The notes beneath the pieces are model-generated. The model saw only the letters and a program-made list of their open reading frames with translations. It did no database searches and was not told the DNA's origin. Made by a program: the position numbers and the translations under genes. 64,000 nucleotides of DNA from Anaerovoracaceae bacterium (lineage in GTDB: Bacteria; Bacillota; Clostridia; Peptostreptococcales; Anaerovoracaceae), in contig JAZUII010000013.1 in the NCBI GenBank assembly GCA_045642105.1, positions 11,669 to 75,668 on the forward strand, read 5' to 3'. Numbering within the stretch: the stretch's first letter is position 1; each line of letters begins with the position of its first letter. Shown here piece after piece: positions 42,306-55,561 of the stretch.

Positions 42306-42381
42306 GTCTCAGTAGCTCAGGGGACAGAGCACCGCTCTCCTAAAGCGGGTGTCGGAGGTTCGAATCCTCTCTGGGACACCA
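42306..42381 (+). tRNA. tRNA-Arg (anticodon CCT)
   Basis: Folded by hand into a 76-nt cloverleaf. Acceptor GTCTCAG/CTGGGAC, D arm GCTC/GAGC, anticodon stem CCGCT/AGCGG with loop CTCCTAA, T arm GGAGG-TTCGAAT-CCTCT. CCA is encoded. Confidence 0.9.
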
Positions 42382-42433: not shown

Positions 42434-42480
42434 TCTGGTTCAAATAAGGTACACAAAAAACGGCTTAACGCCGTTTTTTG
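42434..42480. repeat. copy A of the 45-nt terminator-like repeat (putative attL)
   Basis: tctggttcaaataaggtacacaaaaaacggcttaacgccgttttttg. Shares its left flank with copy C. Confidence 0.7.
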
Positions 42481-42530
42481 TGTTTCAATTGAGGTTAAAT
42501 CACTTAATTACTTCCTATAATACATCCTCA

Positions 42531-43652
42531 TTATTGTGAAACTTTTATTCCGATCACATTCATCACATAATCGAAATATGTTATCTTGTCATAAACTATT
42601 CTGGCTTCTACTGCCATTCCATTAGTTACAGTTACATTGTCCCCATTCTTTGTATTGAGAACTGTTGATTCCGGTTTAATCTTTATCTTAAAGAATGATT
42701 GCTGACCGTCTTCACTGATTGAGATGTCAGAATCGATTTCTGTTACTTCCCCTTTCAATGTTCCATAAACGTTCGGCTGCAAGCCTGAGACTGCAACAGT
42801 TACAGCATTTCCGACATCAATTCGACTGCGATCTGACGCCGAAACAGTAGCCTCGATTATAGCTTTATCTCCATCTGTGTCTGAGAGGCTTGCAATCGGA
42901 CTGCCGGCCTGTATCACCACACCGTCTTTATACTCCCCTAGCAGATGCAGCTTTCCAGAGGCATTTGCTGTAACTGTAAAGTTTGCCTCTTCGGATTTTA
43001 ACGCACTGATCTGACTGTCTATTGCATCTACTTCCTGCTGATTCTGTTTCTGCGAAGCAGCTGCCGTATTCATAGCTTCATATTTCGTTTGCTGTCTTGC
43101 TGCTTCATTGCTTTTTACTGCTGCAGCTATTTCTTTATCCGAGTAGTCCAACTTTTTCAGTGCGCCCTTATCTATAACCTGTTGCTCGAGCTGTTTCTCA
43201 TACGCTTTATATTGGCTGTAATATAAGCTATCCGATTTATCACTGGATGAAAAATAATTCTTCGAATCTTTAATAGACTTTACCAGCTGAGCATATTTTG
43301 AAGCTGTCACTGCGTATGATGCGCGCTGCGCTTCGAGTTGCTTAATCTGCATATCTATATCATTGCTTTTTACCTTGAAAAGTTCCTGTCCTTTTCTAAT
43401 GTCCTGCCCCTCATGCATGCTGACATCATAAATCTCTCCGCCATACTCGCTCATTACATAGTTCTTGTCCACCCCTTGAATTGTACCGTTTGCCATTACA
43501 ATATACGGTCTCTTCGCATGCGTTGACCAGATAGACACAACAATAATAATCGCAAACACAATTATGAGAAGAAAATAACCGAAACCTGGCACATCCTTCT
43601 CATATAATAATCTACTGTCTTTTAATTCATCTAATGTCGTTGGCTTATTCAT
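42531..43652 (-). CDS. HlyD/ComB-type bacteriocin secretion accessory protein
   Basis: N-terminal TM, long coiled-coil region and beta-barrel tail. Overlaps the upstream gene by 8 nt. Confidence 0.75.
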   Translation of the reverse strand: MNKPTTLDELKDSRLLYEKDVPGFGYFLLIIVFAIIIVVSIWSTHAKRPYIVMANGTIQGVDKNYVMSEYGGEIYDVSMHEGQDIRKGQELFKVKSNDIDMQIKQLEAQRASYAVTASKYAQLVKSIKDSKNYFSSSDKSDSLYYSQYKAYEKQLEQQVIDKGALKKLDYSDKEIAAAVKSNEAARQQTKYEAMNTAAASQKQNQQEVDAIDSQISALKSEEANFTVTANASGKLHLLGEYKDGVVIQAGSPIASLSDTDGDKAIIEATVSASDRSRIDVGNAVTVAVSGLQPNVYGTLKGEVTEIDSDISISEDGQQSFFKIKIKPESTVLNTKNGDNVTVTNGMAVEARIVYDKITYFDYVMNVIGIKVSQ

Positions 43653-44430
43653 TTGTTTTGTGTAAATCGATGCTTAAATCTTTTTTATATATTATTAACG
43701 TAATCGTTACCGCAATTGCTATATATACTACCAGCAATAATATCGATAAAAAAGTTTTATCCGGGAGAACAGTAATTCTCGAATTATCTGACAATAGAAA
43801 AACAAGTAAATTGTTAGCACTGTGCACAATCATGCTCACGACCAAATTTCCTGTTGCTTCATATGCAAGACATAAACATATTCCAATTAATAGTGCATTT
43901 ATATCCGCATATGCACTTCCATGTGTGAACGCAAAAATGGTACTTGAAACAATTGCCGCCCCAAAGAAGGAATTGTTCTTACGCAATCTGCCAAATATTG
44001 CACCTCTAAATATTAACTCTTCTGCTATAGGAGCCAAAACTACAAGAACTACAAACACAAGAGGTCCATTATTGCTTGTCGTAGTATCCCATGGCCTTGT
44101 CTGATCCATTTTTAACAGTAGCAATAAAGTTTCTAATGCACTTGAAAATGCAAGGACTGCAATGTATACAAGTATGATTATTTTCGCATTTTTTAAAATT
44201 CCCTTATTACTAAAATTAATGATTTTTTCTGATCTCAAAATATAACCAGTTGCAGCTATCTGAATCAATGAACCAAATGCTGTAACGAGCAATCTTCTGT
44301 TATTATATTCAATTCCTTCGTATCCATGTGTTGCTATGCTTAAACCCAATGATGCCATCACTAAGGCAAAAATATATAAAAACATTATTTTAATGCAAAA
44401 ATTAACATCTTCGTGTGTAGGTTTTATCAT
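43645..44430 (-). CDS. CPBP (Abi) family intramembrane protease, putative immunity or maturation protein
   Basis: Motifs APIAEELIFRG, FAFTHG and HSANN. Confidence 0.8.
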   Translation of the reverse strand: MIKPTHEDVNFCIKIMFLYIFALVMASLGLSIATHGYEGIEYNNRRLLVTAFGSLIQIAATGYILRSEKIINFSNKGILKNAKIIILVYIAVLAFSSALETLLLLLKMDQTRPWDTTTSNNGPLVFVVLVVLAPIAEELIFRGAIFGRLRKNNSFFGAAIVSSTIFAFTHGSAYADINALLIGICLCLAYEATGNLVVSMIVHSANNLLVFLLSDNSRITVLPDKTFLSILLLVVYIAIAVTITLIIYKKDLSIDLHKTNE

Positions 44431-44502: not shown

Positions 44503-44697
44503 TTATTTCTGCATACTCTTAGGGCTAAAACCTTTTGGCGTTTTGTACTTTTTTCCAGAAATGCAATCATCAATAAACTTCGATGCGCAGTATCCAGCTG
44601 CGAATGTCAAAAGCTGACTTACTCCACCTTCAACTTGCATCATCTCGCTACTGCTTAATGCCATAGCTGAATTTGGTAAAACCATATTATTGTGCAT
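44503..44697 (-). CDS. double-glycine-leader class II bacteriocin precursor
   Basis: AGGAG RBS. Leader MHNNMVLPNSAMALSSSEMMQVEGG fits LSxxELxxIxGG. Predicted 39-aa mature peptide VSQLLTFAAGYCASKFIDDCISGKKYKTPKGFSPKSMQK has 2 Cys. Confidence 0.75.
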   Translation of the reverse strand: MHNNMVLPNSAMALSSSEMMQVEGGVSQLLTFAAGYCASKFIDDCISGKKYKTPKGFSPKSMQK

Positions 44698-44771: not shown

Positions 44772-45434
44772 TCAGAAAAACACAAGCACATTGTGTATGC
44801 AATGCGCTATGATAGCCGCATCAATAGAACCTGTGCACTTATAAACTAAGGCATAACAAACTCCTGAAATAATATATGGTATGGAAGTTGCGCTAAATAG
44901 ATTATGCATTAATCCAAATGCAACACTTGATATTATAACGGCAATAAAAACAGCCACTTTTTCGTTGCTGATTTTCCTTTTAAGTCCTTTTTCAAACCAG
45001 CACATTATCACTCTTCGAAAAAACAGTAATCCTAATACGAGTACCTGAGCCAAGAATAACCGTTGCAAAAACTACCCGGACAATACTTGCTGTTTTAAAT
45101 TGCTCATCAAGCATAGCCTGATTCCCCGAAGCCAGTACCTCTTCCCCGAAAATTCTGCAGTAGATATAGAACATCAATGTATCAGAAGCAACAGCCGCAA
45201 CAATTATTATCAGTTTTTTAAACATTTTCTTTTTTCGGAGCGACAAAACATCTCATTCTTAAAGCAATATATACCAAGAACGCCTACGATACACACGCCC
45301 ATAAGAGATGCATTACTTGAAAAGACTTCTCTAAATTTAAATAAATATTCAAGCATGCCATATACAAAACGAATGCCTATATATGCTAATAAATATAATT
45401 CTTCTTTTCTTAAATTGCTCTGATTTTCCATCAT
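44772..45434 (-). pseudogene. second CPBP-family gene split over three frames (probable frameshifted pseudogene)
   Basis: Three contiguous overlapping ORFs in three frames. The last carries FGLMHN and IAHCIHN motifs. The EExxxR motif region is degenerate (LGLLFFRR). Confidence 0.5.
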
Positions 45435-45614: not shown

Positions 45615-47813
45615 TTATTCGCTCTTTGCGTGCTTATCTACATATTCTTTCACGATGTTGCCTTGTTGCATTTCCCACAAGCAGTAATACCTACCCTGCT
45701 TTGCTATCAACTCATCGTGAGTACCCGTTTCAATCACTTTGCCTTCGTCTAGAACAATTATCTTATCGCAATGTCTTATAGTGCTTAATCTGTGTGCTAC
45801 TATTAGCATTGTTTTGTTCGGCAGCTTGTTATAGATAGTGTCGAAAATCACATTCTCCGTTCCGAAGTCAAGGTTACTGGTGGATTCATCGAGAATGAAC
45901 AAATCCGCATCTTTAAGAAAAGCTCTTGCAAGTGCTAGCCTTTGCCGCTCTCCTCCACTTAATCCCTGCCCTGCTTCTTCAAGATATGTGTTCATCTGCA
46001 ATGGCTGTTTTCTTATAAAGTCCTGAGCATCTGCCATAGCCAGAGCTCTTGTTATCTCAGATTCTGTTGCATTTGGTTTTACCATTGCAACATTTTCGTA
46101 GATACTCTTGGAGAAAAGTTGGATATTCTGCGGAACAAGCGAAATGTTCTTCCTCAAACACTGCGGAGATATCTCATTCAAGTTGATTCCGTCAATTGTA
46201 ATCTTGCCATTTTCTATTTCATAATATTTGAGTAGCAATTTAACTATCGTGGATTTACCGCTTCCACTTGCACCAACTAGTGCAGTTTTCTTGCCGTGTT
46301 CAATCATGAAAGATACATTCTCAAGTGCAAGATTTCTGTTTCCATATCTAAAAGATACATTGTCAAGTTTAATATCGCCGTTTAAACTGCACTTATCTCC
46401 AGACTCGCTTGGAGTAGTCTCTTTTTCATATTCCAGAATTTCTGCAATTCTCTTCATCGAAATCTGTGCTTCCTGGATATCCAGCTGTAATCCCACCAAG
46501 CTTCCAACAGGCTCCATGAAATAGCTTGTTAGGGTCATAAATGCCATAAGTGAACCTATCGTTAGGTTTCCATCTAGTACCTGTTTAATGCCAAAGTACA
46601 TGATGAACAGGTTGCCGATTGTTCCGATGATATCGGAGATTGCACCCTGTATCGTGGATAGCCAGCCTTCCTTATATGCTATTCTTAGAGACCTTATGTA
46701 TTCTCTTTCAATGCCGTCAAGTTCTCTTCCCTCTGATGCATTGCCTTTGATGGTTTCTACTGCTTCAAGGCCCTCTATTATCTGTGAATTCAGAACAGAA
46801 GCTTGCTGCATCTGTTCCTGATTGATCTTCTTGTATGGCTGTTTGAAGATGAATACTAATACAATGCTTAAGAGTGTGAGTAGTGCTATTATTGCGAATA
46901 ATCCACTGTTCATTCTAAACAGGATCACGCCTGTTATAACTGCCATAGATACATCCATAATTAGCGTCAAGGCTATGTTGGTAAATATATCCTTTATGGT
47001 AAATGCATCCGAGAATCTTGTTATTATGTCTCCCGTCTTCCTTGTTGCAAAGAACCTCATCGGCAGCGAATAGATATTCTTGAAATATCCGAGCATTAAC
47101 GGAATATCTATTCTCTGTGACAGATGCAACATTATCCAGCTACGGATAAAGCCTATGAGTGTCTGTGTGAATGCGACCAACGAGAAAATTATCAGGCTGG
47201 ATAGCAGAAGTTTATCCAGTCCGTATGGGAGAACCTCATCCATTATTATCTTGTTAAACAATGACGATACTATCCCAAGAACAGTCATCATCAGCGATGC
47301 CAATATTGCAAAGATAAATAGTTTCTTTTGAGGTATGAGTAGCGCTACAAATCTCTGAAATGTTGACTGTCCGTCTATCTTACCTGTTTTAAATCCGTCA
47401 TTAGGGCTTAATATGAGAAGTGCGCCGGTAAATCTCTTGAGAAAATCTCCTACTGCTATTTTCTCTATTACTTCTTTTCCCGGATCTCCTACAGTAACTT
47501 TGTCGTTCTTGATCTTATAGATAACAACGAAATGGCTTAGACCTTCTTTGGTAATGATGTTCGCTATACATGGAAGCGTGTATTTACTGAGAAAGCCTTC
47601 TTTATCTACTCGTACTGCCTGATTGTCAAAGCCGAGCTTTTCTGCACACTTACTGAGCCCGATAAGGTTAGTCCCTTTTAAATCTGTTCCCATCATGTCT
47701 CGTAGCTTTGTGATGGTAGTCTCTTTCTTATAGTACAGACATACCATCGCCAAACATGCTGCTGCGCAATCTGTCATGTCATGTTGTTTAACTAACCTAT
47801 ATTTTCTATTCAA
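45615..47813 (-). CDS. peptidase C39 domain-containing bacteriocin ABC transporter
   Basis: N-terminal VKQHDMTDCAAACLAMVCLYY (C39 Cys), 6-TM domain, Walker A GASGSGKST, signature LSGGERQ. TTG start with GAGGA RBS. Confidence 0.9.
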   Translation of the reverse strand: MNRKYRLVKQHDMTDCAAACLAMVCLYYKKETTITKLRDMMGTDLKGTNLIGLSKCAEKLGFDNQAVRVDKEGFLSKYTLPCIANIITKEGLSHFVVIYKIKNDKVTVGDPGKEVIEKIAVGDFLKRFTGALLILSPNDGFKTGKIDGQSTFQRFVALLIPQKKLFIFAILASLMMTVLGIVSSLFNKIIMDEVLPYGLDKLLLSSLIIFSLVAFTQTLIGFIRSWIMLHLSQRIDIPLMLGYFKNIYSLPMRFFATRKTGDIITRFSDAFTIKDIFTNIALTLIMDVSMAVITGVILFRMNSGLFAIIALLTLLSIVLVFIFKQPYKKINQEQMQQASVLNSQIIEGLEAVETIKGNASEGRELDGIEREYIRSLRIAYKEGWLSTIQGAISDIIGTIGNLFIMYFGIKQVLDGNLTIGSLMAFMTLTSYFMEPVGSLVGLQLDIQEAQISMKRIAEILEYEKETTPSESGDKCSLNGDIKLDNVSFRYGNRNLALENVSFMIEHGKKTALVGASGSGKSTIVKLLLKYYEIENGKITIDGINLNEISPQCLRKNISLVPQNIQLFSKSIYENVAMVKPNATESEITRALAMADAQDFIRKQPLQMNTYLEEAGQGLSGGERQRLALARAFLKDADLFILDESTSNLDFGTENVIFDTIYNKLPNKTMLIVAHRLSTIRHCDKIIVLDEGKVIETGTHDELIAKQGRYYCLWEMQQGNIVKEYVDKHAKSE

Positions 47814-47826
47814 CTGCTATTTCCTC

Positions 47827-47865
47827 AAAAAAAATCTTTCAGCAATAATATGTTATGCCGAAAGA
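47827..47865 (-). terminator. intrinsic terminator (riboswitch expression platform)
   Basis: UCUUUCGGC-13 nt-GCUGAAAGA (9 bp including one G-U) followed by U8. It abuts the RBS of the ABC transporter gene. Confidence 0.8.
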
Positions 47866-47962
47866 CCGCTTATTCCCATATTAGCGGCCAGGCTGTCATA
47901 CGCTGTTAGCGCTAAGACCCTATGACTTTGCGTCCCTGACTTTCATCAGGTTTGCCCAATGT
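47866..47962 (-). promoter_or_regulatory. c-di-GMP-I (GEMM-I) riboswitch aptamer candidate
   Basis: GGGCAAACC, then CUGAU-GAAA-GUCAG, then GGGACGCAAAG, then helix GUCAUA...UAUGAC, then AGCCUGGCCGC. Order and core sequence match the GEMM-I consensus as I recall it. Confidence 0.75.
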
Positions 47963-47978
47963 TTACTTTTATATATTT

Positions 47979-48008
47979 ATTGTACCATGTTGAATTAACT
48001 ATAATCAA
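47979..48008 (-). promoter_or_regulatory. sigma-A-type promoter for the riboswitch and bacteriocin operon
   Basis: TTGATT-18 nt-TACAAT on the minus strand, about 15 nt upstream of the aptamer. Confidence 0.5.
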
Positions 48009-48037
48009 TGATAGCAAGCAATCTTTAATATTGCTGT

Positions 48038-48070
48038 AAAAAACAGCTGGTAGTCTTTTGACCACCAGCT
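48038..48070 (-). terminator. intrinsic terminator after the relaxase gene
   Basis: agctggt-12 nt-accagct followed by U6 on the minus strand, 5 nt after the TAG stop. Confidence 0.7.
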
Positions 48071-48075
48071 TCCAA

Positions 48076-49035
48076 CTAACGCTCCAAGTCTATTTCTTTC
48101 GCGCGGATTTCTGCAAAAATCTCCTTCGGAATTTTTCTGAGAAGTTTATCCTGTTCTCTCACTTGCCTCTCAAGTTTTCTGATCGTTACTTTATCCTCTC
48201 CGGCATTTTGTCTTTCATCATACAGCTCATCACGAGCATGTCTATATGCGTTATTGGCATCGTGAAGACTTTCAGAGAGATAGTCAATATGCTCCGATAC
48301 CTTATGAACTTCAGCGTGAAATCTATCCATTTCCGGTATCAGTGCAGCAAGTTTTTCGATTAACTCGTCTCTCTTTTTCCCAACGTTCATGAAATTCATA
48401 TCACCAAGTTCATTCAATATTTCCTGACACTGACGATCAAGAGCGTCTCCCTTTTTGAACAGCCAGGTCGGAATATGCTTGCGATGAGTCTCGATTGCGG
48501 AGCGTCCGCGTTCAAGGTCAGGCCACCGCTCCGACATGCAGTCGTGGAATTCTGTCTGCCATTCCGACAGCTTTTTCTGATTGCCGAGGATATCTTTTGC
48601 AGACAATCTGCCGTCAGAAGTAATCGGACAGAACGACAGATGCATGTGCGGAGTCTTCTCGTCCATGTGCACGATTGCAGAAATAATATTGTCTTTTCCG
48701 ATCCGTTCACTGATGAAGCCGAGTGCTCTTTCAAAGAATTCTTTCTTCTCTTCAGCGGGTAATTCATTCATGAATTCGGGTGATGCAGTGATCAAAGTCT
48801 CGATCATTATCACAGAATCTTTTCTCTTTCTGCAGCCTGCGTCTTTGATTTTCTGATTCAGTTCTTTAGTGTAAGTGTACTTCGGCGGATCGACCAGATG
48901 ATAATTCAGGTCAGCTTTTTCTATATCAATATCAGGATTGCTCTTGTAAGCTGCCTTCTTTCTTTCGTTGTGTCTCTCGCACGAAGCGACTGATCCACCT
49001 TTCCTTTTCTTAAATCTTAATATCGCAAAAGCCAT
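48076..49035 (-). CDS. MobV (Mob_Pre) family relaxase
   Basis: AGGAG RBS. MAFAILRFKKRKGGSVASCERHNERK N-terminus and HMDEKTPHMH (HxDExxPHxH) motif. Confidence 0.85.
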   Translation of the reverse strand: MAFAILRFKKRKGGSVASCERHNERKKAAYKSNPDIDIEKADLNYHLVDPPKYTYTKELNQKIKDAGCRKRKDSVIMIETLITASPEFMNELPAEEKKEFFERALGFISERIGKDNIISAIVHMDEKTPHMHLSFCPITSDGRLSAKDILGNQKKLSEWQTEFHDCMSERWPDLERGRSAIETHRKHIPTWLFKKGDALDRQCQEILNELGDMNFMNVGKKRDELIEKLAALIPEMDRFHAEVHKVSEHIDYLSESLHDANNAYRHARDELYDERQNAGEDKVTIRKLERQVREQDKLLRKIPKEIFAEIRAKEIDLER

Positions 49036-49077
49036 TATGATGACTCCTTTCTTCATTTATATTTACGTCGCCATCAG

Positions 49078-49391: not shown

Positions 49392-50516
49392 TTATGCTTC
49401 GGGCAGTAGACAACTACTGCCCGTGATACCATCTGAAGAGAATGACGCCGATTTCTTTAAATAACCGCTATTTGAATTTGCGTCATTGCCGTCATTTGCG
49501 TCACCGCGCCTCTTCTGATCAGGCAAGCGTCTCAGCGTTATCAACCGCGCTTCACTGGTTCTTCTCATCATCAGCTCGACATTATAGTCATGTTTGATTT
49601 TGTCAACATTCGGATTAAGTCTTCTTGTAAAAGAACTTGGCATCATGCTATCTTCACCGAGCACTCTCATCATCTCAGTTGCAGTTCCTTCCCAGTAGGT
49701 TCTGTCACCCAGTACGTCTTCCATTATTTTATCGAGGAATGGATCCTTAGGTTCATCCCACAATTCTCTTTCAATCGACTCAAGTTCCCAGTTTAGATTC
49801 TGTCTGTTGAATTTCATGTTGAGCCTCATATCCTGGATATCTCGGCTCACGACATTAAGAACGCCGTCGTCTCCGTGACGTTTTTCTTTTGTAAGAATAA
49901 AAGCCCCATCCGCCGAGCCGACCAATCCATTAGTTCCTGAGAGTTTGTCCAGAATATCCTCTGCGTCCATCTTCCTCGTATGGTGAACTATAAGTATGCT
50001 CACGTTCCTCCAGTCCGTTATCTTCTTGATAGATGATATAACTGCATAGTCATCTGCATATGACCCTCCGTCCGATGGTCTTGCCTTCTGTAAGGTGTCA
50101 ATGATGACAAGCGCCGTGTCAGGATGATCGTCAATAAACGCTTTAATCTGCTCCTCTAATCCTTCAGATATTTTCTCAGCACAAGTTGCAAAATGCAGAT
50201 TCTTTGTTGTTTCTATTCCGAACATTTTGTTCATTCTCTGCTGAATCCTCTGTTCATTGTCTTCGAGCGCCAGATACAGGACTGTACCCCGTCTTACTGG
50301 AAATCCCCATAAAGGAATTCCCATGCTTACATGGTACGCAATCTTCATTGCCATAAAAGATTTGCCGGTCTTAGGTGCCCCTGCGAGGAAGTTAGTTCCT
50401 CCATGTATCAGCCCATCAATCACCGGATATCTCGGGAAAAAGAAAGTGTCCATTATCTCTGCCGCTGTTCTTGTTTCGAGCGTGTTACTCGATGCTAAAA
50501 ATGTTTCGTAATCCAT
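49392..50516 (-). CDS. RepA-like/AAA_25 RecA-fold ATPase (element replication or processing)
   Basis: Walker A GAPKTGKS, Walker B LVIIDTLQ. The last roughly 40 codons run through hairpin and iteron DNA. Confidence 0.7.
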   Translation of the reverse strand: MDYETFLASSNTLETRTAAEIMDTFFFPRYPVIDGLIHGGTNFLAGAPKTGKSFMAMKIAYHVSMGIPLWGFPVRRGTVLYLALEDNEQRIQQRMNKMFGIETTKNLHFATCAEKISEGLEEQIKAFIDDHPDTALVIIDTLQKARPSDGGSYADDYAVISSIKKITDWRNVSILIVHHTRKMDAEDILDKLSGTNGLVGSADGAFILTKEKRHGDDGVLNVVSRDIQDMRLNMKFNRQNLNWELESIERELWDEPKDPFLDKIMEDVLGDRTYWEGTATEMMRVLGEDSMMPSSFTRRLNPNVDKIKHDYNVELMMRRTSEARLITLRRLPDQKRRGDANDGNDANSNSGYLKKSASFSSDGITGSSCLLPEA

Positions 50517-50526
50517 TGTGCCCTCC

Positions 50527-50727
50527 TTAATTGTTTTCTTTGATGTTTCTTGTCTTATACCAGTTGATTCTTGGTGAACTCAGTCCATGCCCTCTTTGAT
50601 GCTGCTGATTGTAAGGCTTCTTCTCATCATTCGCTCTGAGCCAATCTGTAACCGCTTGAATTTGATAGAGTTCTGGCATAATCGCCCTTACAAACATATT
50701 GATCTGCTTTTTACTTAGATTATTCAT
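50527..50727 (-). CDS. small hypothetical protein (possible excision or regulatory factor)
   Basis: 66-aa protein with AGGAGG RBS, the first gene after the leader terminator. No family recognised. Confidence 0.45.
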   Translation of the reverse strand: MNNLSKKQINMFVRAIMPELYQIQAVTDWLRANDEKKPYNQQHQRGHGLSSPRINWYKTRNIKENN

Positions 50728-50794
50728 GCTTACATCCTCCTTTCTGCTCTTGATCCTTGTTGCACTAACGAATCAGGCAGGCTTTGGAAGCAAT

Positions 50795-50819
50795 AAAAAA
50801 GCCGGCCTACATGACCGGT
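50795..50819 (-). terminator. intrinsic terminator at the end of the long leader or ncRNA
   Basis: CCGGUC-AUGUA-GGCCGG followed by CU6 on the minus strand, 68 nt upstream of ATG 50727. Confidence 0.6.
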
Positions 50820-51253
50820 TTGATTGCACAACAAATAAGGTGTATCAAAATGTCATGTAAGCCGACTACGGTTAACTACCATTAGTTGGATGATAAGTAT
50901 TCCTTCCTCCCCTTATCCGGGCGTCCGGACCCATTTCCGGAATCATTATCAGGAGGGAGTGTGCATCACTCCTCCACAGGAATTTAACCTCCCGAAGGAT
51001 CTCCTCGGGCCGCCCCATGTAGTATGTCAAGACGGGAGTATCATTGTCTTCCGGAGTTGTCATCGCACTTGAAGTTGCTAGCCTTCATTTTGGATATACT
51101 GTATTATCGCTCGTCCGCAAAACGGAGTCTCTGCGTACAGATCGCTCATGCTCACAGCGTTAACTGCATAGTCCGGAGAATGTTCCTGATAACGGCGTAT
51201 TCATAATTACACATCTGCTGAATTCTGTAACAGAAAAAACAGAACAAATGTTC
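50820..51253 (-). ncRNA. candidate structured leader or ncRNA (about 430 nt), unclassified
   Basis: No ORF longer than 63 aa. GC looks higher than the surrounding element. Several local hairpins (ggagggagtg/cactcctcc, cccgaagga/tcctcggg, ccgg.../ccgg). Bounded by a promoter with LexA box and a terminator. Confidence 0.35.
51242..51253. promoter_or_regulatory. LexA (Cheo-type) box GAACAAATGTTC
   Basis: GAAC-N4-GTTC immediately downstream of the minus-strand -10 hexamer. Flanks resemble the box at 28834. Confidence 0.55.
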
Positions 51254-51652: not shown

Positions 51653-52030
51653 ATGTACACTATCAGAATGGGTATTCCAGAAATGGATGCTTTCTGGTCA
51701 TCTCTTGAAAGCAAAATTGCTAACGAGACTGCTTCAAAAGATGAACTGAAACTATATAAGAAAATTGGTAAAGCATTGGTCCTCTTGGCAAATAATCCTC
51801 GTCATCCAGGACTTAATTCGCACGAGATAACATCTCTTTCTCGCAGATATGGGCAAAAAGTATGGGAATCTTATCTGGAGAATCAAACGCCTGCCGCAGG
51901 TAGATTGTTCTGGACCTATGGTCCGGGACAGGGCGAGATTACAATAATTGCTATTGAACCACATCCTAATGACAAATCGAACGCATATAAGAAGATAACG
52001 CTATCATCGATGGGAGAAATATTACAATAA
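51653..52030 (+). CDS. RelE/ParE-superfamily toxin-like protein
   Basis: 125-aa protein, 3 nt after the antitoxin stop. C-terminal ...RLFWTYGPGQGEITIIAIEPHP resembles the RelE/ParE core. Confidence 0.45.
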   Translation: MYTIRMGIPEMDAFWSSLESKIANETASKDELKLYKKIGKALVLLANNPRHPGLNSHEITSLSRRYGQKVWESYLENQTPAAGRLFWTYGPGQGEITIIAIEPHPNDKSNAYKKITLSSMGEILQ

Positions 52031-53553
52031 TGAAAAATGCTGTTATTTACGCAAGATACAGTTCTGAAAAACAAAATGAAATGTCTATTGAAGGTCAGCT
52101 TGCAGAATGTCATCGCTACGCTGCTGAAAATGACCTTCTTGTTGTGCGTGAATATATCGACCGTGCTCAAAGTGCCAAAACCGACAGACGACCTGAGTTT
52201 CTTCATATGATAGCAGACAGTGACTGGGGTAATTTCGAAGTAATTCTTGTTTATCAGCTAGACCGTTTTGCAAGAAGCATGAATGATTCCGGATACTACA
52301 GGAAGATTCTTGCTGGAAATGGTGTTAGGGTTGTTTCAGCAAAAGAAAACATTGCAACCGATAGTTCAGGAGTAATGACCGAGGGAATGCTGATTACAAT
52401 GGGGCAATGGTTCAGCGCTCAATTATCTGAGAAGGTTACCCGTGGAATGCTGCAGCGAGCAGAGCAGTGTAAATACAACGGGGGTCATATGCCTTTCGGA
52501 TATGCAGTTGACAGCAATCAGCATTACATACTAGATGAAGTAAACGCCCCAATAGCTCGAGAAATATTTGAACGAGTATCCGAAAGGGAGCCGATAACTT
52601 CAATTATGAAGGATCTCAACGAGCGAGGAGTTAAGACTTCTCGCGGGAATGAATTCCATCGCGGCTCACTACAAAATTTGCTACGTAATGAAATCTATAA
52701 AGGCGTTTATAGCTATGCCGATATACGCATTCCCGATGGCGTTCCTCGAATTGTAAGTGATGAACTATTTGATGAAGTTCAGCAAATTATAGTAAAACGC
52801 CAACATACTCGGCGACCGGCAATTGAGGACTATATTCTTTCAGGAAAACTATATTGTGGTCACTGCAACAGTTTGATGGATGGTGTATCAGGAACATCCA
52901 GCACCGGGAAAACTTACAGATACTACAAGTGCATGACTAAATCTTGTAAAAAGAAAAACATACGAAAAGATTTGCTCGAACAAAATGTTCTGACAGTTTG
53001 CAGGGAACTGCTATCGGATGAAGCAATTTCTATGATAATCAAAGGAGTTGAAGAGCAGAACCGCAAGGATCAGGAAAGTGCTTCCATCATCAATATTCGC
53101 AAAGACATAAAAGAAACCGAAAAGAAAATCGAAGTACTGCTCGACCAGCTTGAAACAGGATATAACTCCTCTAGTATTGCGGAGCGATTAAATAAAAGGG
53201 AAAAAGAACTGGAGGAACTTAATAGACAATTGCGGAAAGAGCAAGCGAAACAGAAGACTATAGACCCTGCAGTTACCAAAAGTTTCCTTCTTTCTATCAG
53301 AGATGGAAGCATAAAAGATCTCGACTATCAAAAGCTTTTAATAAATACTCTGATTGATAGGATTTATCTGTATGATGATCATTTCAGAATACAGCTTACA
53401 CATTCCGGACGGAAAGGGGAAACTTCAAATCGGGGCGCATTAGAAATTGAACGCTATTTCTCAAACACACCTGAAGTCCGTTCTAAATTGCAAAATTTTG
53501 GGACACCAAAAAGAAATCGACATCCTCGATGTCGGTTTCTTTTTTTGTCTTGA
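52030..53553 (+). CDS. large serine recombinase (integrase)
   Basis: Resolvase N-domain AVIYARYSSEKQ...LVYQLDRFARS, recombinase domain, zinc ribbon CGHCNS...YYKCMTKSC, coiled coil. The ATG overlaps the toxin stop (TAATG). Confidence 0.9.
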   Translation: MKNAVIYARYSSEKQNEMSIEGQLAECHRYAAENDLLVVREYIDRAQSAKTDRRPEFLHMIADSDWGNFEVILVYQLDRFARSMNDSGYYRKILAGNGVRVVSAKENIATDSSGVMTEGMLITMGQWFSAQLSEKVTRGMLQRAEQCKYNGGHMPFGYAVDSNQHYILDEVNAPIAREIFERVSEREPITSIMKDLNERGVKTSRGNEFHRGSLQNLLRNEIYKGVYSYADIRIPDGVPRIVSDELFDEVQQIIVKRQHTRRPAIEDYILSGKLYCGHCNSLMDGVSGTSSTGKTYRYYKCMTKSCKKKNIRKDLLEQNVLTVCRELLSDEAISMIIKGVEEQNRKDQESASIINIRKDIKETEKKIEVLLDQLETGYNSSSIAERLNKREKELEELNRQLRKEQAKQKTIDPAVTKSFLLSIRDGSIKDLDYQKLLINTLIDRIYLYDDHFRIQLTHSGRKGETSNRGALEIERYFSNTPEVRSKLQNFGTPKRNRHPRCRFLFLS

Positions 53554-53560
53554 TAAGGAA

Positions 53561-53606
53561 GGCACACAAAAAACGGCTTAACGCCGTTTTTTGCTTCTCA
53601 AAGCAG
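53561..53606. repeat. copy B of the 45-nt repeat (putative attR)
   Basis: ggcacacaaaaaacggcttaacgccgttttttgcttctcaaagcag. Shares its right flank (caaagcag) with copy C. Confidence 0.7.
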
Positions 53607-53751
53607 ATTATGCTATCTTTGATCCGCGTTGGGTTTGAGGTTCTATAATTGGGAACGTCCGGCACAATCGCTAAGATTCTTAACACCTGCGCCATACAAG
53701 GAATATATCTGTAATCTAAATCCTTATCCTATGCTGGCTGACTTTTTAATG

Positions 53752-55365
53752 TTATCTGGTCTTGATAGCTTTCTTATCCGACCATGAACTATAGTATTTC
53801 TTGCCATCAAGCTTCTTTACTGTTCTTACCTGAACGTAGTAAGTCCTGCCCTGCTTAAGATTCTTTACTGTCTTTTTTACAGCTGAGCTTTTTGAACTGA
53901 TTGTTACGGTCTTAGGTGAAGACATGCTCTTCATCAGGCTGTATCTTACCTGATAGCCTGATGAATATGTTGAAGTCAGCGCTGCTGCTTTTACTGTAAA
54001 TGCCTTAGTGCCCTTAGTAAGTGATGCTACTTTTGTAGGCTTAACCTTGATTGTGTAGCTCTTTGACAGGGTTCCGGTATAGTTCCCCTTGCCCTTTACT
54101 GTAATTTTATATGTGCCTGGCTTTGCAGCCTTTTTTGTACCGCTTACTGTATAGTTTGCTGAGCTTACAGTTTTTCCATTGACATCCTTTACTGTTATTG
54201 AAGGGCCCTGTGACTTTCCTGTGCAGTAATATGAAGTCTTGCTGAGCGAAAGGCTCTTCAACGCTACAGTTTCAGGCTTATATATATGCATATACTTATA
54301 TACATTCATATAGTCAGCAGGCTTGAAGGTCTCCGTATTGCTTCCGTCCATATTTCTGCTTGCAACGATTTTCATATCTGAAGAAATATCTGTTCCCAGT
54401 ACAAGTTCTTCGAATACATCTTCACCTACTGCTTTAAGCATTGGAGCAAACATGTCTTCAGTTCCAGACACTTTTAAAGTAATGTCGCCGCCCTTAATAT
54501 TATAATTGCCCAGCACCATTATGCCCAGAATATCTGTTTCACTGGTGAGGGTACCTCCTGTTACATTTAAGGTGCCATTAATCTGCATTCCGCTGAAACC
54601 GCCGTTAATATTCATCTTGCCGCCTGAAATATTAAATACACCAGGTTCAGCCTCTTCGTCTAAGTCAGAAAAGATTGCCAAACCATATTCACCAGTTGAT
54701 GTAAAATTGATAATTCCTCCGCTGATGTCAAAGTTCTTACATTCAATACCACAGTTACGGTATGCGATGCTTAATGTTCCTGACTTCTGCATGAATGATT
54801 CTGTTTTAATACCGCCATCACAGCCTTCGATTGTTAATGAACCGGAGTTTGTAAATTCTTTTGTAGCGAAAAGAACATCATTTGGACGGGCATAAGCCTT
54901 GATTGATATATTTCCGCTATTTGTGATATAGTCACCATAAATTACAGGATCGTCAGTTTCAGACTCAATTGAAAGCGTTCCGTCACCTGTGATAGTAAGG
55001 CGTGAATTGCTGTCGTTGCTATCAACTGCAATCCCCAGCTCTCTTTTTACTGTGATTTTACTATCACTCTTTACATTAATTGTTAATGGAGTGGCATCTC
55101 GTGACTGATCACACCATACTGCCATATCGTTGTCATCGGATAGATCAGCACCGTCAAGAGTAAGCACATTTGCCTCCTTATCATATGCTACTGTTCCATC
55201 ACCCAGAACATCATTGTAATTAGTACTATTAATTTCAATTCCTTCTACAAAGATGTCTGAGTTCCACTCCTGTTCTGTATCTGCAAATGCTACTGTACCT
55301 GCAGCAGGTATCACTGATATTGTTACAGCAGCAGAAAGCAGAACGCTTAATAATTTTGTTCTCAT
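53752..55365 (-). CDS. secreted repeat protein with Ig-like GNYTG module and C-terminal FN3-like module
   Basis: GGAGGG RBS before ATG 55365. Signal peptide MRTKLLSVLLSAAVTISVIPAAGTVAFA. Repetitive beta-rich middle. ...KGKGNYTGTLSKSYTIKV... GYQVRYSL...RTYYVQVRTV...YYSSWS. Confidence 0.75.
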   Translation of the reverse strand: MRTKLLSVLLSAAVTISVIPAAGTVAFADTEQEWNSDIFVEGIEINSTNYNDVLGDGTVAYDKEANVLTLDGADLSDDNDMAVWCDQSRDATPLTINVKSDSKITVKRELGIAVDSNDSNSRLTITGDGTLSIESETDDPVIYGDYITNSGNISIKAYARPNDVLFATKEFTNSGSLTIEGCDGGIKTESFMQKSGTLSIAYRNCGIECKNFDISGGIINFTSTGEYGLAIFSDLDEEAEPGVFNISGGKMNINGGFSGMQINGTLNVTGGTLTSETDILGIMVLGNYNIKGGDITLKVSGTEDMFAPMLKAVGEDVFEELVLGTDISSDMKIVASRNMDGSNTETFKPADYMNVYKYMHIYKPETVALKSLSLSKTSYYCTGKSQGPSITVKDVNGKTVSSANYTVSGTKKAAKPGTYKITVKGKGNYTGTLSKSYTIKVKPTKVASLTKGTKAFTVKAAALTSTYSSGYQVRYSLMKSMSSPKTVTISSKSSAVKKTVKNLKQGRTYYVQVRTVKKLDGKKYYSSWSDKKAIKTR

Positions 55366-55470
55366 TCTGTATCCCTCCATAAATAATTAATACATTTTCA
55401 ATTAAATTAATCGTATCAAACGGAGGGGGACAAGAAGGGGACAAGCAGGGAAGGCATAAGAAAGTGGAAT

Positions 55471-55536
55471 TCTGGTTCAAATAAGGCACACAAAAACGGC
55501 TTAACGCCGTTTTTGTTTTTTCCTTTTCAAAGCAGC
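55471..55536. repeat. copy C of the 45-nt repeat (unoccupied attB-like paralogue and terminator)
   Basis: tctggttcaaataaggcacacaaaaacggcttaacgccgtttttg...ttcaaagcag combines the left flank of A with the right flank of B. Confidence 0.65.
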
Positions 55537-55561
55537 TTCTGCTTTCTTTAATACTTTGAGC

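What the first reader, a model, noticed from the sequence alone, without database searches (positions are those of the whole stretch)
47827..48008. A c-di-GMP-I (GEMM-I) riboswitch plus terminator gates a mobile-element bacteriocin operon
Seen: the minus strand from 47962 to 47827 reads AUUGGGCAAACCUGAUGAAAGUCAGGGACGCAAAGUCAUAGGGUCUUAGCGCUAACAGCGUAUGACAGCCUGGCCGCUAAUAUGGGAAUAAGCGGUCUUUCGGCAUAACAUAUUAUUGCUGAAAGAUUUUUUUU. The 5' half reproduces the GEMM-I hallmark: GGCAAACC, a 6-bp helix capped by a GAAA tetraloop (CCUGAU-GAAA-GUCAGG), then GGGACGCAAAG. For comparison, I recall the V. cholerae Vc2 aptamer as ...GGGCAAACCAUUCGAAAGAGUGGGACGCAAAGCC... A second helix (GUCAUA...UAUGAC) and an AGCC.GG..GC closing segment follow in the expected order. 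A TTGATT-18-TACAAT promoter lies just upstream. A 9-bp stem plus U8 terminator abuts the GAGGA RBS and the TTG start of the C39 transporter. The 3' aptamer strand (GCCGCU) can alternatively pair with the downstream AGCGG, which suggests a switching element. I cannot tell from the sequence whether the switch is ON or OFF with ligand. Established: c-di-GMP-I riboswitches control flagella, pili, adhesins and proteases in Clostridia and Vibrio. Inference: second-messenger (sessile versus motile state) control of bacteriocin export, immunity and probably precursor. This would replace the usual peptide-pheromone circuit and would be carried on a transferable element. I am not aware of a described bacteriocin locus under c-di-GMP riboswitch control.
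Basis: partly seen in the sequence, partly recalled or inferred. Interest (0 to 1): 0.85.

Follow-up and report, generated by a model that had tools for sequence, protein, structure and literature searches.

The report
c-di-GMP riboswitch before a bacteriocin exporter
A genuine c-di-GMP-sensing RNA switch with a terminator sits directly before a peptide-bacteriocin export and immunity operon carried by a small integrated mobile element, a gene pairing I found in no paper and in only one other place among about 157 related loci; which way the switch works is still untested.

Summary
Rfam's c-di-GMP-I model (RF01051) matches window 47966-47880 (minus strand) over its full length at 64.4 bits, against a gathering score of 35. 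The c-di-GMP-II control gives nothing. A promoter, a competitor hairpin, a 10-bp terminator with U8, a GAGGA ribosome site and a TTG start follow in order. Downstream lie a C39-peptidase ABC exporter, a broken CPBP gene, a 64-aa double-glycine precursor, a CPBP immunity-type gene and a HlyD adaptor.

The operon is cargo of an 11.1-kb integrative mobilizable element. That element has 52-nt direct repeats, a tRNA-Arg flank, a serine recombinase and a MobV relaxase.

The pairing is rare. Among about 157 related exporter loci, only one other (L002) has a GEMM-I riboswitch. Its platform is a different, ON-type design.

In this window the terminator folds whether or not the aptamer is formed. The competitor hairpin contests only the base of the terminator. 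This resembles the Clostridioides difficile Cd1 layout, so I predict, weakly, an OFF switch.

It is a new member of a known riboswitch class with an undescribed target. Interest is moderate (0.42), not 0.85.

The parts
47979..48008 (-). Promoter-like site TTGATT-18-TACAAT with a TG extension. The predicted transcription start is about 47972, 5-6 nt before the aptamer.
   Evidence: It lies between the mob terminator (48070-48045) and the aptamer. The consensus scan as a whole is not enriched over shuffles.
47880..47966 (-). c-di-GMP-I (GEMM-I) aptamer. P2 is CCUGAU-GAAA-GUCAGG. P3 carries a tetraloop-receptor-like CUUAG...UAUG. The G20 equivalent is at 47956, the A47 equivalent at 47929 and the candidate C92 equivalent at 47884.
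   Evidence: RF01051, 64.4 bits (gathering score 35), full length, one non-canonical pair.
47864..47889 (-). Competitor hairpin H1: GGCCGCU-AA-UAU-GGGA-AUA-AGCGGUC. Its 5' arm is the 3' strand of aptamer P3 plus the ligand-contact GC. Its 3' arm shares GGUC with the base of the terminator.
   Evidence: -9.7 kcal/mol alone, present in the unconstrained minimum-free-energy fold, excluded when the aptamer is enforced.
47827..47865 (-). Intrinsic terminator T. The stem is UCUUUCGGCA/UGCUGAAAGA (10 bp, extendable to 12 with G-U pairs), the loop is 11 nt, and U8 follows.
   Evidence: -11.8 kcal/mol (10 bp) to -13.7 (12 bp). With H1 fully formed the stem is cut to 8 bp (-7.3) and stands 2 nt off the U tract.
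47811..47826 (-). GAGGA ribosome-binding site (47826-47822) and TTG start codon (47813-47811) of the exporter.
   Evidence: Relatives with N-termini MNRKFKLVKQ and MNRKYHLVKQ support this start. The database copy P0001 is annotated from M13.
45615..47813 (-). Peptide cleavage/export ABC transporter with an N-terminal C39 peptidase domain (732 aa). The catalytic residues Q10, C16, H94 and D110 are present.
   Evidence: Peptidase_C39, ABC_membrane, ABC_tran; TIGR01193, 594 bits against a 523.85 cut-off.
44772..45434 (-). Three ORF fragments of a frameshifted second CPBP/Rce1-like gene, a probable pseudogene.
   Evidence: the last fragment hits PF02517 at 6e-12.
44503..44697 (-). 64-aa precursor with a double-glycine leader (…LSSSEMMQVEGG|VSQLL…). 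The mature peptide is 39 aa, cationic, with two cysteines. It has its own GGAG ribosome site.
   Evidence: It has no Pfam or NCBIfam family, and the leader motif was read directly from the sequence.
43645..44430 (-). CPBP (Rce1-like) intramembrane protease, the type of gene that serves as immunity in class II bacteriocin loci.
   Evidence: PF02517, 77 bits.
42531..43652 (-). HlyD-family accessory/adaptor protein (373 aa). It is the last gene of the operon.
   Evidence: HlyD_3. TIGR01843 and TIGR01000 hit below their cut-offs.
42446..42497 (+). Left direct repeat of the mobile element. It is a terminator-like hairpin 65 nt after tRNA-Arg(CCT) at 42306-42381.
53559..53610 (+). Right direct repeat (85% identical over 52 nt, with an identical 31-nt core), just after the recombinase stop codon.
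   Evidence: spacing 11,113 bp.
48076..49056 (-). MobV relaxase of the element. Its own terminator is at 48070-48045.
   Evidence: Mob_Pre, 187 bits; NF041497, 172.9 bits against a cut-off of 100.
49392..51047 (-). Element backbone: pemK RNA motif (51047-50974), a 66-aa ORF and an AAA_25 ATPase (49392-50516).
52030..53553 (+). Large serine recombinase (Resolvase + Recombinase + Zn_ribbon_recom).

Best explanation
The leader is a functional c-di-GMP-I riboswitch that controls, by transcription attenuation, a five-gene double-glycine bacteriocin operon: C39-ABC exporter, a decayed CPBP gene, precursor, CPBP immunity gene and HlyD adaptor. The operon is cargo of an 11.1-kb integrative mobilizable element.

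Transcription starts about 5 nt before the aptamer. Without ligand, the 3' strand of the aptamer (GGCCGCU) is captured by AGCGGUC to form hairpin H1. H1 occupies the lowest nucleotides of the terminator's 5' arm. The terminator is then left as an 8-9 bp stem standing off the U tract, so more polymerases read through. With c-di-GMP bound, GGCCGCU is locked in P3/P1 and H1 cannot form. The terminator then closes as a 10-12 bp stem flush with U8.

The layout is therefore that of the C. difficile Cd1 riboswitch, in which aptamer and terminator can coexist and a competing hairpin acts as antiterminator. On that basis I predict an OFF switch: a high c-di-GMP (sessile) state lowers exporter, immunity and precursor expression.

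What is shown: aptamer identity, hairpin H1, the terminator, the gene content and the mobile element. What is inferred: ligand binding, gating of the terminator and the sign. I put identity as a c-di-GMP-I riboswitch leader of this operon at about 0.9. The figure below is for the whole statement including the OFF direction.
For: - Aptamer: RF01051 at 64.4 bits against a gathering score of 35, full length. It has a GAAA tetraloop and a receptor-like motif. The position aligned to Vc2 G20 is G, not the A of cGAMP-sensing variants (alignment; PMC6140456).
- Order of parts: promoter, aptamer, H1, terminator with U8, ribosome site, TTG, with no intervening ORF.
- H1 is mutually exclusive with the aptamer. 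It has pair probability 0.9-1.0 in unconstrained folds and 0 when the aptamer is enforced.
- The bottom terminator pair U110-A140 rises from 0.18-0.33 without the aptamer to 0.69-0.99 with it.
- Terminator stability is -7.3 kcal/mol (8 bp, H1 full) against -11.8 to -13.7 (10-12 bp, no H1).
- Aptamer and terminator are compatible. That is the hallmark of the Cd1 OFF design, as opposed to the pilM ON design (PMC9262584).
- All functional class I c-di-GMP riboswitches tested in C. difficile act as OFF switches (PMC6200980).
- Operon identity. Element identity.
Against: - At equilibrium the terminator forms in both states, and only one or two base pairs differ.
- The three H1/terminator registers are isoenergetic at -19.2 to -19.8 kcal/mol, so the terminator could displace H1 by branch migration and any effect could be small.
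- The only other riboswitch-linked exporter locus (L002) has a clear ON design, with a 13-bp terminator built from the aptamer's 3' strand. A shared biological logic would therefore argue for ON here.
- No homologous leader exists to test covariation of H1 or the terminator.
- One operon gene is already a pseudogene, so decay is possible.
- No GGDEF or EAL gene was found among the 36 window ORFs scanned against Pfam (29 distinct ORFs outside the element), so the host's capacity to make c-di-GMP is unverified.
Confidence: 0.5

Rival explanations
1. Same riboswitch and same operon, but an ON switch: c-di-GMP raises bacteriocin export, so that a sessile or biofilm state arms the cell. The mechanism would be one not captured by nearest-neighbour folding. 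Examples are H1 followed by UCUUUC acting as the regulated pause or terminator, or the liganded aptamer interfering kinetically with nucleation of the terminator.
For: The one independent parallel, L002, is built as an ON switch. Window H1 sits where the L002 terminator sits and is followed by a U-rich UCUUUC. Bacteriocin production at high density or in biofilm is biologically sensible (inference).
Against: With the aptamer enforced the full terminator still forms, and is longer. No alternative pairing was found that would sequester either terminator arm. The best candidate, UAAUAUG with the terminator loop CAUAUUA, costs about 12 kcal/mol relative to the minimum-free-energy fold. Class I switches in C. 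difficile are OFF.
Confidence: 0.22
2. The aptamer is intact and may bind ligand, but it no longer gates expression, or gates it only trivially. On this view the terminator is a constitutive leaky attenuator and the leader is a relic in a decaying cargo module, or control acts at another level such as RNA stability.
For: The terminator is predicted in both states. The second CPBP gene is frameshifted. Every element protein that could be looked up (five of the six submitted) is a singleton or near-singleton in a collection of 15 billion proteins; the MobV sequence was not found. The host's c-di-GMP enzymes have not been seen.
Against: The aptamer scores almost 30 bits above threshold with all core nucleotides intact. 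H1 is a well-formed GNRA-capped hairpin placed exactly so as to compete with both the aptamer and the terminator base, which is unlikely without selection. The exporter, precursor, immunity and HlyD ORFs are all intact.
Confidence: 0.2
3. The aptamer senses another cyclic dinucleotide (3',3'-cGAMP, as GEMM-Ib does) rather than c-di-GMP.
For: GEMM-I and GEMM-Ib share the same fold and were long confused (PMC9262584).
Against: The position equivalent to Vc2 G20 is G (47956). cGAMP-selective variants carry A there (PMC6140456). RF01051 outscored the other members of its Rfam clan at this site.
Confidence: 0.04

Closest known systems
Cd1 (Cdi-1-3) c-di-GMP-I riboswitch upstream of flgB in Clostridioides difficile
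   Same: Same aptamer class. It acts at the level of transcription. Aptamer and terminator can coexist, and a hairpin using the aptamer's 3' strand competes with the terminator. It is an OFF switch (PMC9262584; PMC6200980).
   Different: Here the overlap between the competitor hairpin and the terminator is only 2-4 nt at the stem base. The target is a bacteriocin exporter operon rather than flagella. The locus is on an integrative mobilizable element. Nothing has been tested experimentally.
L002: GEMM-I riboswitch upstream of a 68%-identical C39 ABC exporter in an uncultured Eubacterium MAG (CAZQRO010000118.1)
   Same: RF01051 at 61.7 bits, directly upstream of the same exporter family. It has a G at the G20 position and a further hairpin between the riboswitch and the gene.
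   Different: The 13-bp terminator is built from the aptamer's own 3' strand, which is the pilM-like ON design. P3 carries a 43-nt insertion. The distance to the start codon is about 245 nt. No mobile-element genes are visible on the 5-kb contig. P2 differs from the window's by compensatory changes, which suggests separate recruitment rather than a shared leader.
Classical class II (double-glycine) bacteriocin loci, such as blp, plantaricin and sakacin, regulated by a peptide pheromone, a histidine kinase and a LytTR response regulator
   Same: C39-ABC exporter, HlyD-type accessory protein, GG-leader precursor and an Abi/CPBP-type immunity gene. Relative L071 keeps a LytTR regulator and kinase next to the exporter.
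   Different: There is no kinase, regulator or pheromone gene in the element. A second-messenger riboswitch occupies the regulatory position.
c-di-GMP-I riboswitches on mobile elements of C. difficile (prophage and element-borne type I toxin-antitoxin antisense RNAs and small ORFs)
   Same: A GEMM-I aptamer carried by horizontally mobile DNA, so that element genes read the host's c-di-GMP level (PMC11477304).
   Different: The targets there are antitoxin RNAs or small hypothetical proteins, not a bacteriocin export and immunity operon.
Closest exporter relatives (82-83% identity; L013, L064-L070)
   Same: Same operon order (ABC, small ORFs, CPBP, HlyD) and a terminator-containing leader directly before the exporter.
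   Different: Their leader is a short ORF containing a hypervariable (CAGA)n repeat plus a terminator, not a riboswitch. Other relatives (L079, L080, L082) have a plain promoter.

Membership tests
Rfam RF01051 c-di-GMP-I (GEMM-I) riboswitch aptamer | Covariance-model score at or above the curated gathering score (35 bits), full-length match | tested here: met
   64.4 bits, model positions 1-87 of 87, E = 2.6e-10 for the window; E = 1.7e-12 in the local rescan.
Rfam RF01051 c-di-GMP-I (GEMM-I) riboswitch aptamer | Two adjacent hairpins: P2 capped by a GNRA tetraloop, and P3 carrying the tetraloop receptor | tested here: met
   alignment. P2 is a 6-bp helix with a GAAA loop. P3 has CUUAG...UAUG where the consensus has CUAAG...UAUG, one substitution. 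There is one non-canonical pair at the P3 base.
Rfam RF01051 c-di-GMP-I (GEMM-I) riboswitch aptamer | Ligand-contact nucleotides G20, A47 and C92 (Vc2 numbering) | tested here: met
   G at 47956, A at 47929 and C at 47884 in the alignment. The roles of G20 and C92 come from PMC6140456. The role of A47, and the mapping of model columns to Vc2 numbers, is my own inference; the mapping is least certain for C92.
Rfam RF01051 c-di-GMP-I (GEMM-I) riboswitch aptamer | Closing helix P1 formed by the 5' and 3' flanks | tested here: inconclusive
   Only a weak AU-rich P1 is possible: G-U, U-A, U-A, A-U, a C.A mismatch, then A-U, between 47962-47957 and 47883-47878. This was read from the sequence. The Rfam model does not score P1.
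Rfam RF01051 c-di-GMP-I (GEMM-I) riboswitch aptamer | Binds c-di-GMP and changes downstream expression | not testable with these tools
   Needs in-line probing or ITC, plus termination or reporter assays.
Rfam RF01051 c-di-GMP-I (GEMM-I) riboswitch aptamer | Compensatory changes in homologous leaders | tested here: inconclusive
   No homologue of this leader was found. Against L002, P2 differs at several positions while every pair is kept, but that is a comparison of only two sequences.
GEMM-Ib (3',3'-cGAMP riboswitch) | Adenine at the position equivalent to Vc2 G20 | tested here: not met
   G at 47956; criterion from PMC6140456.
Rfam RF01786 c-di-GMP-II | Any covariance-model match in the leader | tested here: not met
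   No match at E up to 10 in 47700-48100.
Double-glycine (class II type) bacteriocin export locus | ABC exporter with an N-terminal C39 peptidase domain and catalytic Cys, His and Asp | tested here: met
   PF03412, 115 bits. TIGR01193, 594 bits against 523.85. Q10, C16, H94 and D110 are present and invariant against L002.
Double-glycine (class II type) bacteriocin export locus | Precursor peptide with an LSxxELxxIxGG-type leader | tested here: met
   44503-44697 encodes a 64-aa peptide with L-12, E-8, M-7, V-4, G-2 and G-1 before VSQLL. This was read by eye and no profile matches.
Double-glycine (class II type) bacteriocin export locus | HlyD-type accessory protein | tested here: inconclusive
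   Pfam HlyD_3 is met at 53 bits. TIGR01000 (bacteriocin_acc) scores 80 bits against 258.85, and TIGR01843 scores 123.7 against 208.65, both below cut-off.
Double-glycine (class II type) bacteriocin export locus | Immunity gene next to the precursor | tested here: inconclusive
   A CPBP/Rce1-like gene lies directly after the precursor (PF02517, 77 bits). The immunity function is assumed from what is known of Abi/CPBP proteins.
Double-glycine (class II type) bacteriocin export locus | Dedicated pheromone, histidine kinase and LytTR regulator circuit | tested here: not met
   No such genes lie between the element's repeats. They are present next to relative L071.
Double-glycine (class II type) bacteriocin export locus | Antimicrobial activity of the mature peptide | not testable with these tools
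   Requires peptide synthesis or expression and inhibition assays.
Integrative mobilizable element (IME) | Site-specific recombinase, a relaxase, no conjugation machinery, flanking direct repeats, and insertion beside a tRNA | tested here: met
   Large serine recombinase. MobV, 172.9 bits against 100. 52-nt repeats 11,113 bp apart. tRNA-Arg at 42306-42381. G+C of 36-44% inside the element, lowest over the bacteriocin operon, against 45-50% in the flank on the tRNA side; the other flank is itself 40-46%. A 96%-identical MobV on a matching backbone continues into unrelated DNA after mob.
Integrative mobilizable element (IME) | Excision and transfer | not testable with these tools
   No empty-site sequence or circular form was available.

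The most novel reading that the evidence does not exclude
A small mobilizable element wires its bacteriocin weapon, together with its immunity gene, directly into the host's c-di-GMP lifestyle signal through a riboswitch, in place of the usual self-contained pheromone circuit. The same solution has arisen at least twice in this exporter family with opposite expression-platform logic: Cd1-like in this window and pilM-like ON in L002. On this reading, leaders of the exporter family are interchangeable regulatory cassettes (riboswitch, hypervariable repeat attenuator, plain promoter, or two-component system).
Probability: 0.35. Interest if true: 0.6.

Novelty: new member of a known kind. Interest (0 to 1): 0.42.

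Why it matters
If the switch works, it gives a direct cis-acting link between the second messenger that sets motile versus sessile behaviour and interbacterial killing in anaerobic Firmicutes. No dedicated protein regulator would be involved, and the link is carried on DNA that can move between hosts.

This adds a new functional class, peptide bacteriocin export and immunity, to the c-di-GMP-I regulon. It would also show that a mobile element can borrow host signalling to time a competitive trait.

The leader is a compact, testable case in which a competitor hairpin clips only the base of a terminator. That makes it useful for understanding how small an antiterminator overlap can be.

The practical weight is limited. 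The arrangement is rare (two loci), it comes from uncultured genomes, and the riboswitch class itself is well known.

Tried and rejected
1. Covariation in homologous leaders could not be done.
   - The exporter's closest relatives lack the leader (82-83% identity: L013, L064-L070; 72-77%: L078-L080).
   - A 96%-identical MobV backbone (L158) continues into unrelated DNA.
   - blastn of the leader against plasmids and phages finds only the generic aptamer core of unrelated GEMM-I riboswitches.

2. Recurrence of the pairing was tested and found to be low.
   - Rfam was run on 33 of them. A core-motif-plus-hairpin filter was run on all of them, and it recovers the window, L002 and two plasmid positive controls.
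   - Only L002 is positive.
   - A direct pattern (ACGCARAG, 65-95 nt, TTTTT, 20-50 nt, C39 motif) gave zero hits in metagenome contigs and in viral contigs.

3. An antiterminator formed by UAAUAUG (47883-47877) pairing with the terminator loop CAUAUUA (47852-47846) was rejected. Enforcing it gives -31.2 kcal/mol against -43.0 for the minimum-free-energy fold. Both strands are already engaged in H1 or P1.

4. Pairing of the P2 GAAAG with the terminator's CUUUC gives only 6 bp and cannot compete with P2. This was judged by inspection.

5. Sequestration of the ribosome site by the U tract or by the terminator's 3' arm: no convincing pairing was found.

6. Host identification and c-di-GMP enzymes.
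   - Exact-sequence look-ups show only one NCBI contig of 75,738 bp, with no name.
   - The 29 distinct ORFs outside the element that were scanned contain no GGDEF or EAL domain.

7. The precursor peptide has no family, and it does not align with the small ORFs of relatives.
Full report
**Observation**

A scan of the whole window against Rfam 15 gives three hits above gathering score. One is c-di-GMP-I (RF01051) at 47966-47880 (-). It scores 64.4 bits against a threshold of 35, covers model positions 1-87 of 87, and has E = 2.6e-10. A permissive rescan of 47700-48100 confirms this as the only significant family.

The alignment shows the hallmark GGCAAAC, a 6-bp P2 with a GAAA loop, GGGACGCAAAG, and P3 with a receptor-like CUUAG...UAUG. 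Only one pair is non-canonical. The nucleotide aligned to Vc2 G20 is G (47956). cGAMP-selective variants carry A there (PMC6140456).

**Anatomy of the leader**

- A terminator at 48070-48045 ends the upstream mob gene.
- TTGATT-18-TACAAT with a TG extension lies at 48008-47979. This places the transcription start about 5 nt before the aptamer.
- After the aptamer comes hairpin H1 at 47889-47864: GGCCGCU-AA-UAU-GGGA-AUA-AGCGGUC, -9.7 kcal/mol. Its 5' arm is the 3' strand of P3 plus the ligand-contact GC.
- Next is terminator T at 47865-47835: a 10-bp stem, an 11-nt loop and -11.8 kcal/mol, followed by U8 at 47834-47827.
- Then come GAGGA and TTG at 47813.
- The TTG start is supported by relatives whose proteins begin MNRKFKLVKQ or MNRKYHLVKQ. 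The single database copy is annotated from M13.

**The operon**

- The first gene encodes a 732-aa exporter with Peptidase_C39, ABC_membrane and ABC_tran domains. It passes NCBIfam TIGR01193, 'peptide cleavage/export ABC transporter', at 594 bits against 523.85. Residues Q10, C16, H94 and D110 are intact.
- Three fragments of a frameshifted CPBP gene follow.
- Next is a 64-aa ORF with its own ribosome site and a canonical double-glycine leader (LSSSEMMQVEGG|VSQLL). The mature peptide is 39 aa and cationic with two cysteines.
- Then come an intact CPBP/Rce1-like gene and a HlyD-family gene.
- No kinase, response regulator or pheromone gene is present.

**The mobile element**

- A 52-nt direct repeat with an identical 31-nt core occurs at 42446-42497 and again at 53559-53610, 11,113 bp apart.
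- The left copy lies 65 nt after tRNA-Arg(CCT). The right copy lies 6 nt after the stop codon of a large serine recombinase.
- Between the repeats lie the operon, a MobV relaxase (172.9 bits against 100), an AAA_25 ATPase and a pemK RNA motif.
- G+C falls to 36-40% over the bacteriocin operon and is 40-44% over the rest of the element. The flank on the tRNA side is 45-50%; the other flank is 40-46%.
- A 96%-identical MobV on a matching backbone (L158) is followed by unrelated DNA. The riboswitch-bacteriocin module is therefore cargo, not backbone.

**How common is the pairing?**

Related exporters were collected from species-representative genomes (63 loci), from metagenomes (80 loci) and from Logan/ENA contigs. 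Rfam was run on the 13 closest genome loci and the 20 closest metagenome loci. It found one further RF01051 hit: L002, an uncultured Eubacterium MAG, at 61.7 bits, directly upstream of a 68%-identical exporter.

A direct DNA pattern joining the aptamer core, a T run and the C39 motif returned nothing from metagenome or viral contigs.

The closest relatives use other leaders:
- a short ORF with a hypervariable (CAGA)n repeat plus a terminator;
- a plain promoter;
- a neighbouring LytTR two-component system.

The association is therefore real but rare, and it appears to have arisen separately in the two loci.

**Mechanism**

Two transcriptional designs are documented for this aptamer class (PMC9262584). 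In the pilM-type ON switch, aptamer and terminator are mutually exclusive. In the Cd1-type OFF switch they coexist, and a competing antiterminator uses the aptamer's 3' strand.

L002 is plainly the first type. Its 13-bp terminator starts with GGCUGC, which belongs to the aptamer.

The window is of the second type. With the aptamer enforced the terminator still forms. The only structure that excludes the aptamer is H1 (pair probabilities 0.9-1.0 in the unconstrained fold and 0 with the aptamer enforced). H1 shares GGUC with the foot of the terminator.
- With H1 complete, the terminator is an 8-bp stem of -7.3 kcal/mol, set 2 nt back from the U tract.
- Without H1 it is 10-12 bp (-11.8 to -13.7 kcal/mol) and flush with U8.
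- The probability of the bottom pair rises from 0.18-0.33 to 0.69-0.99.

I therefore commit to an OFF switch, in which c-di-GMP strengthens termination. This agrees with the uniform OFF behaviour of class I switches in C. difficile (PMC6200980).

The prediction is weak. The H1/terminator registers are isoenergetic, the equilibrium difference is one or two pairs, and L002 points the other way. An antiterminator between UAAUAUG and the terminator loop was examined and rejected.

**Comparison with what is known**

The RNA is a member of RF01051: the score, the architecture and the contact nucleotides are all met, while binding is untestable here. It is not GEMM-Ib and not class II.

The operon meets the defining features of a double-glycine bacteriocin export locus, except that it lacks the usual three-component regulatory circuit.

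Known c-di-GMP-I targets in C. difficile are flagella, adhesins, a protease, small ORFs and element-borne antitoxin RNAs (PMC11477304). Riboswitches on mobile DNA are thus not new in themselves. Full-text searches found no paper that links a c-di-GMP riboswitch to a bacteriocin or C39 exporter. c-di-GMP has been tied to bacteriocin production only through a diguanylate cyclase in Pectobacterium (PMC9144310, listed).

**Verdict**

The finding is correct as an observation and largely correct as an interpretation. It is a new member of a well-known riboswitch class with an undescribed target class, on a mobile element, and it is seen in two independent loci. Ligand response and the sign of regulation remain inferences. 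Interest is moderate (0.42).

Noticed in passing
L013 5812-5998; L064 3813-4000; L065 3845-4000; L066 378-589; L067 1677-1816: The exporter's closest relatives (82-83% identity) have a different leader in place of a riboswitch. It is a short ORF, ATG CTC AGR (CAGA)n, followed by a terminator hairpin just before the ABC start. The repeat number is 2, 18, 22, 24 and 6, even though L064-L067 encode the identical exporter protein. This looks like phase-variable attenuation driven by a tetranucleotide repeat.
   Followed up: partly
window 44772-45434 (-): Three consecutive ORF fragments (74, 84 and 98 aa), of which the last matches Rce1-like/CPBP. This is a second CPBP gene between the exporter and the precursor, broken by frameshifts.
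   Followed up: partly
window 50974-51047 (-): A pemK RNA motif (RF02913, 61.1 bits against 34.8) lies upstream of a 66-aa ORF and the AAA_25 gene in the element backbone.
   Followed up: no
L158 1-5145 (ENA ERZ27247179 k141_508850): This contig carries a 96%-identical MobV and a matching backbone (an AAA_25 gene plus 66-aa and 125-aa ORFs of the same sizes and order as in the window), but unrelated DNA after mob. Related mobilizable elements therefore swap cargo at this position.
   Followed up: partly
L002 2400-2625: Between the L002 riboswitch terminator and the exporter start lie about 220 nt with several very stable hairpins. One is GUGUCCGC-GAG-GGCGGACAC followed by UUUGUU, a possible second terminator. 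The whole leader folds with z = -5.9, and no Rfam family matches.
   Followed up: no
window 42446-42497 and 53559-53610: The element's direct repeats are themselves a terminator-like hairpin (AAAAAACGGCUUAACGCCGUUUUUU) downstream of tRNA-Arg(CCT). Repeats this long are unusual for an element whose only recombinase is a large serine recombinase.
   Followed up: no
window 45615-47813 (-) versus protein P0001: The only database copy of the exporter is annotated from the internal Met13 (720 aa). Homologues and the GAGGA site support the upstream TTG start at 47813, giving 732 aa.
   Followed up: yes
window 53752-60160 (-): Immediately outside the element lie two large surface-protein genes (542 aa with Cthe_2159 and Big_3 domains; 1532 aa with Cna_B, FctA and List_Bact_rpt domains). 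Proteins of this kind are often c-di-GMP-regulated in Clostridia, but no riboswitch was detected there.
   Followed up: no
L071 649-2663: One relative of the L002-type exporter has a LytTR response regulator and a HATPase_c_5 kinase directly upstream, with a small ORF in the leader. This is the classical quorum-sensing arrangement that the riboswitch loci lack.
   Followed up: no
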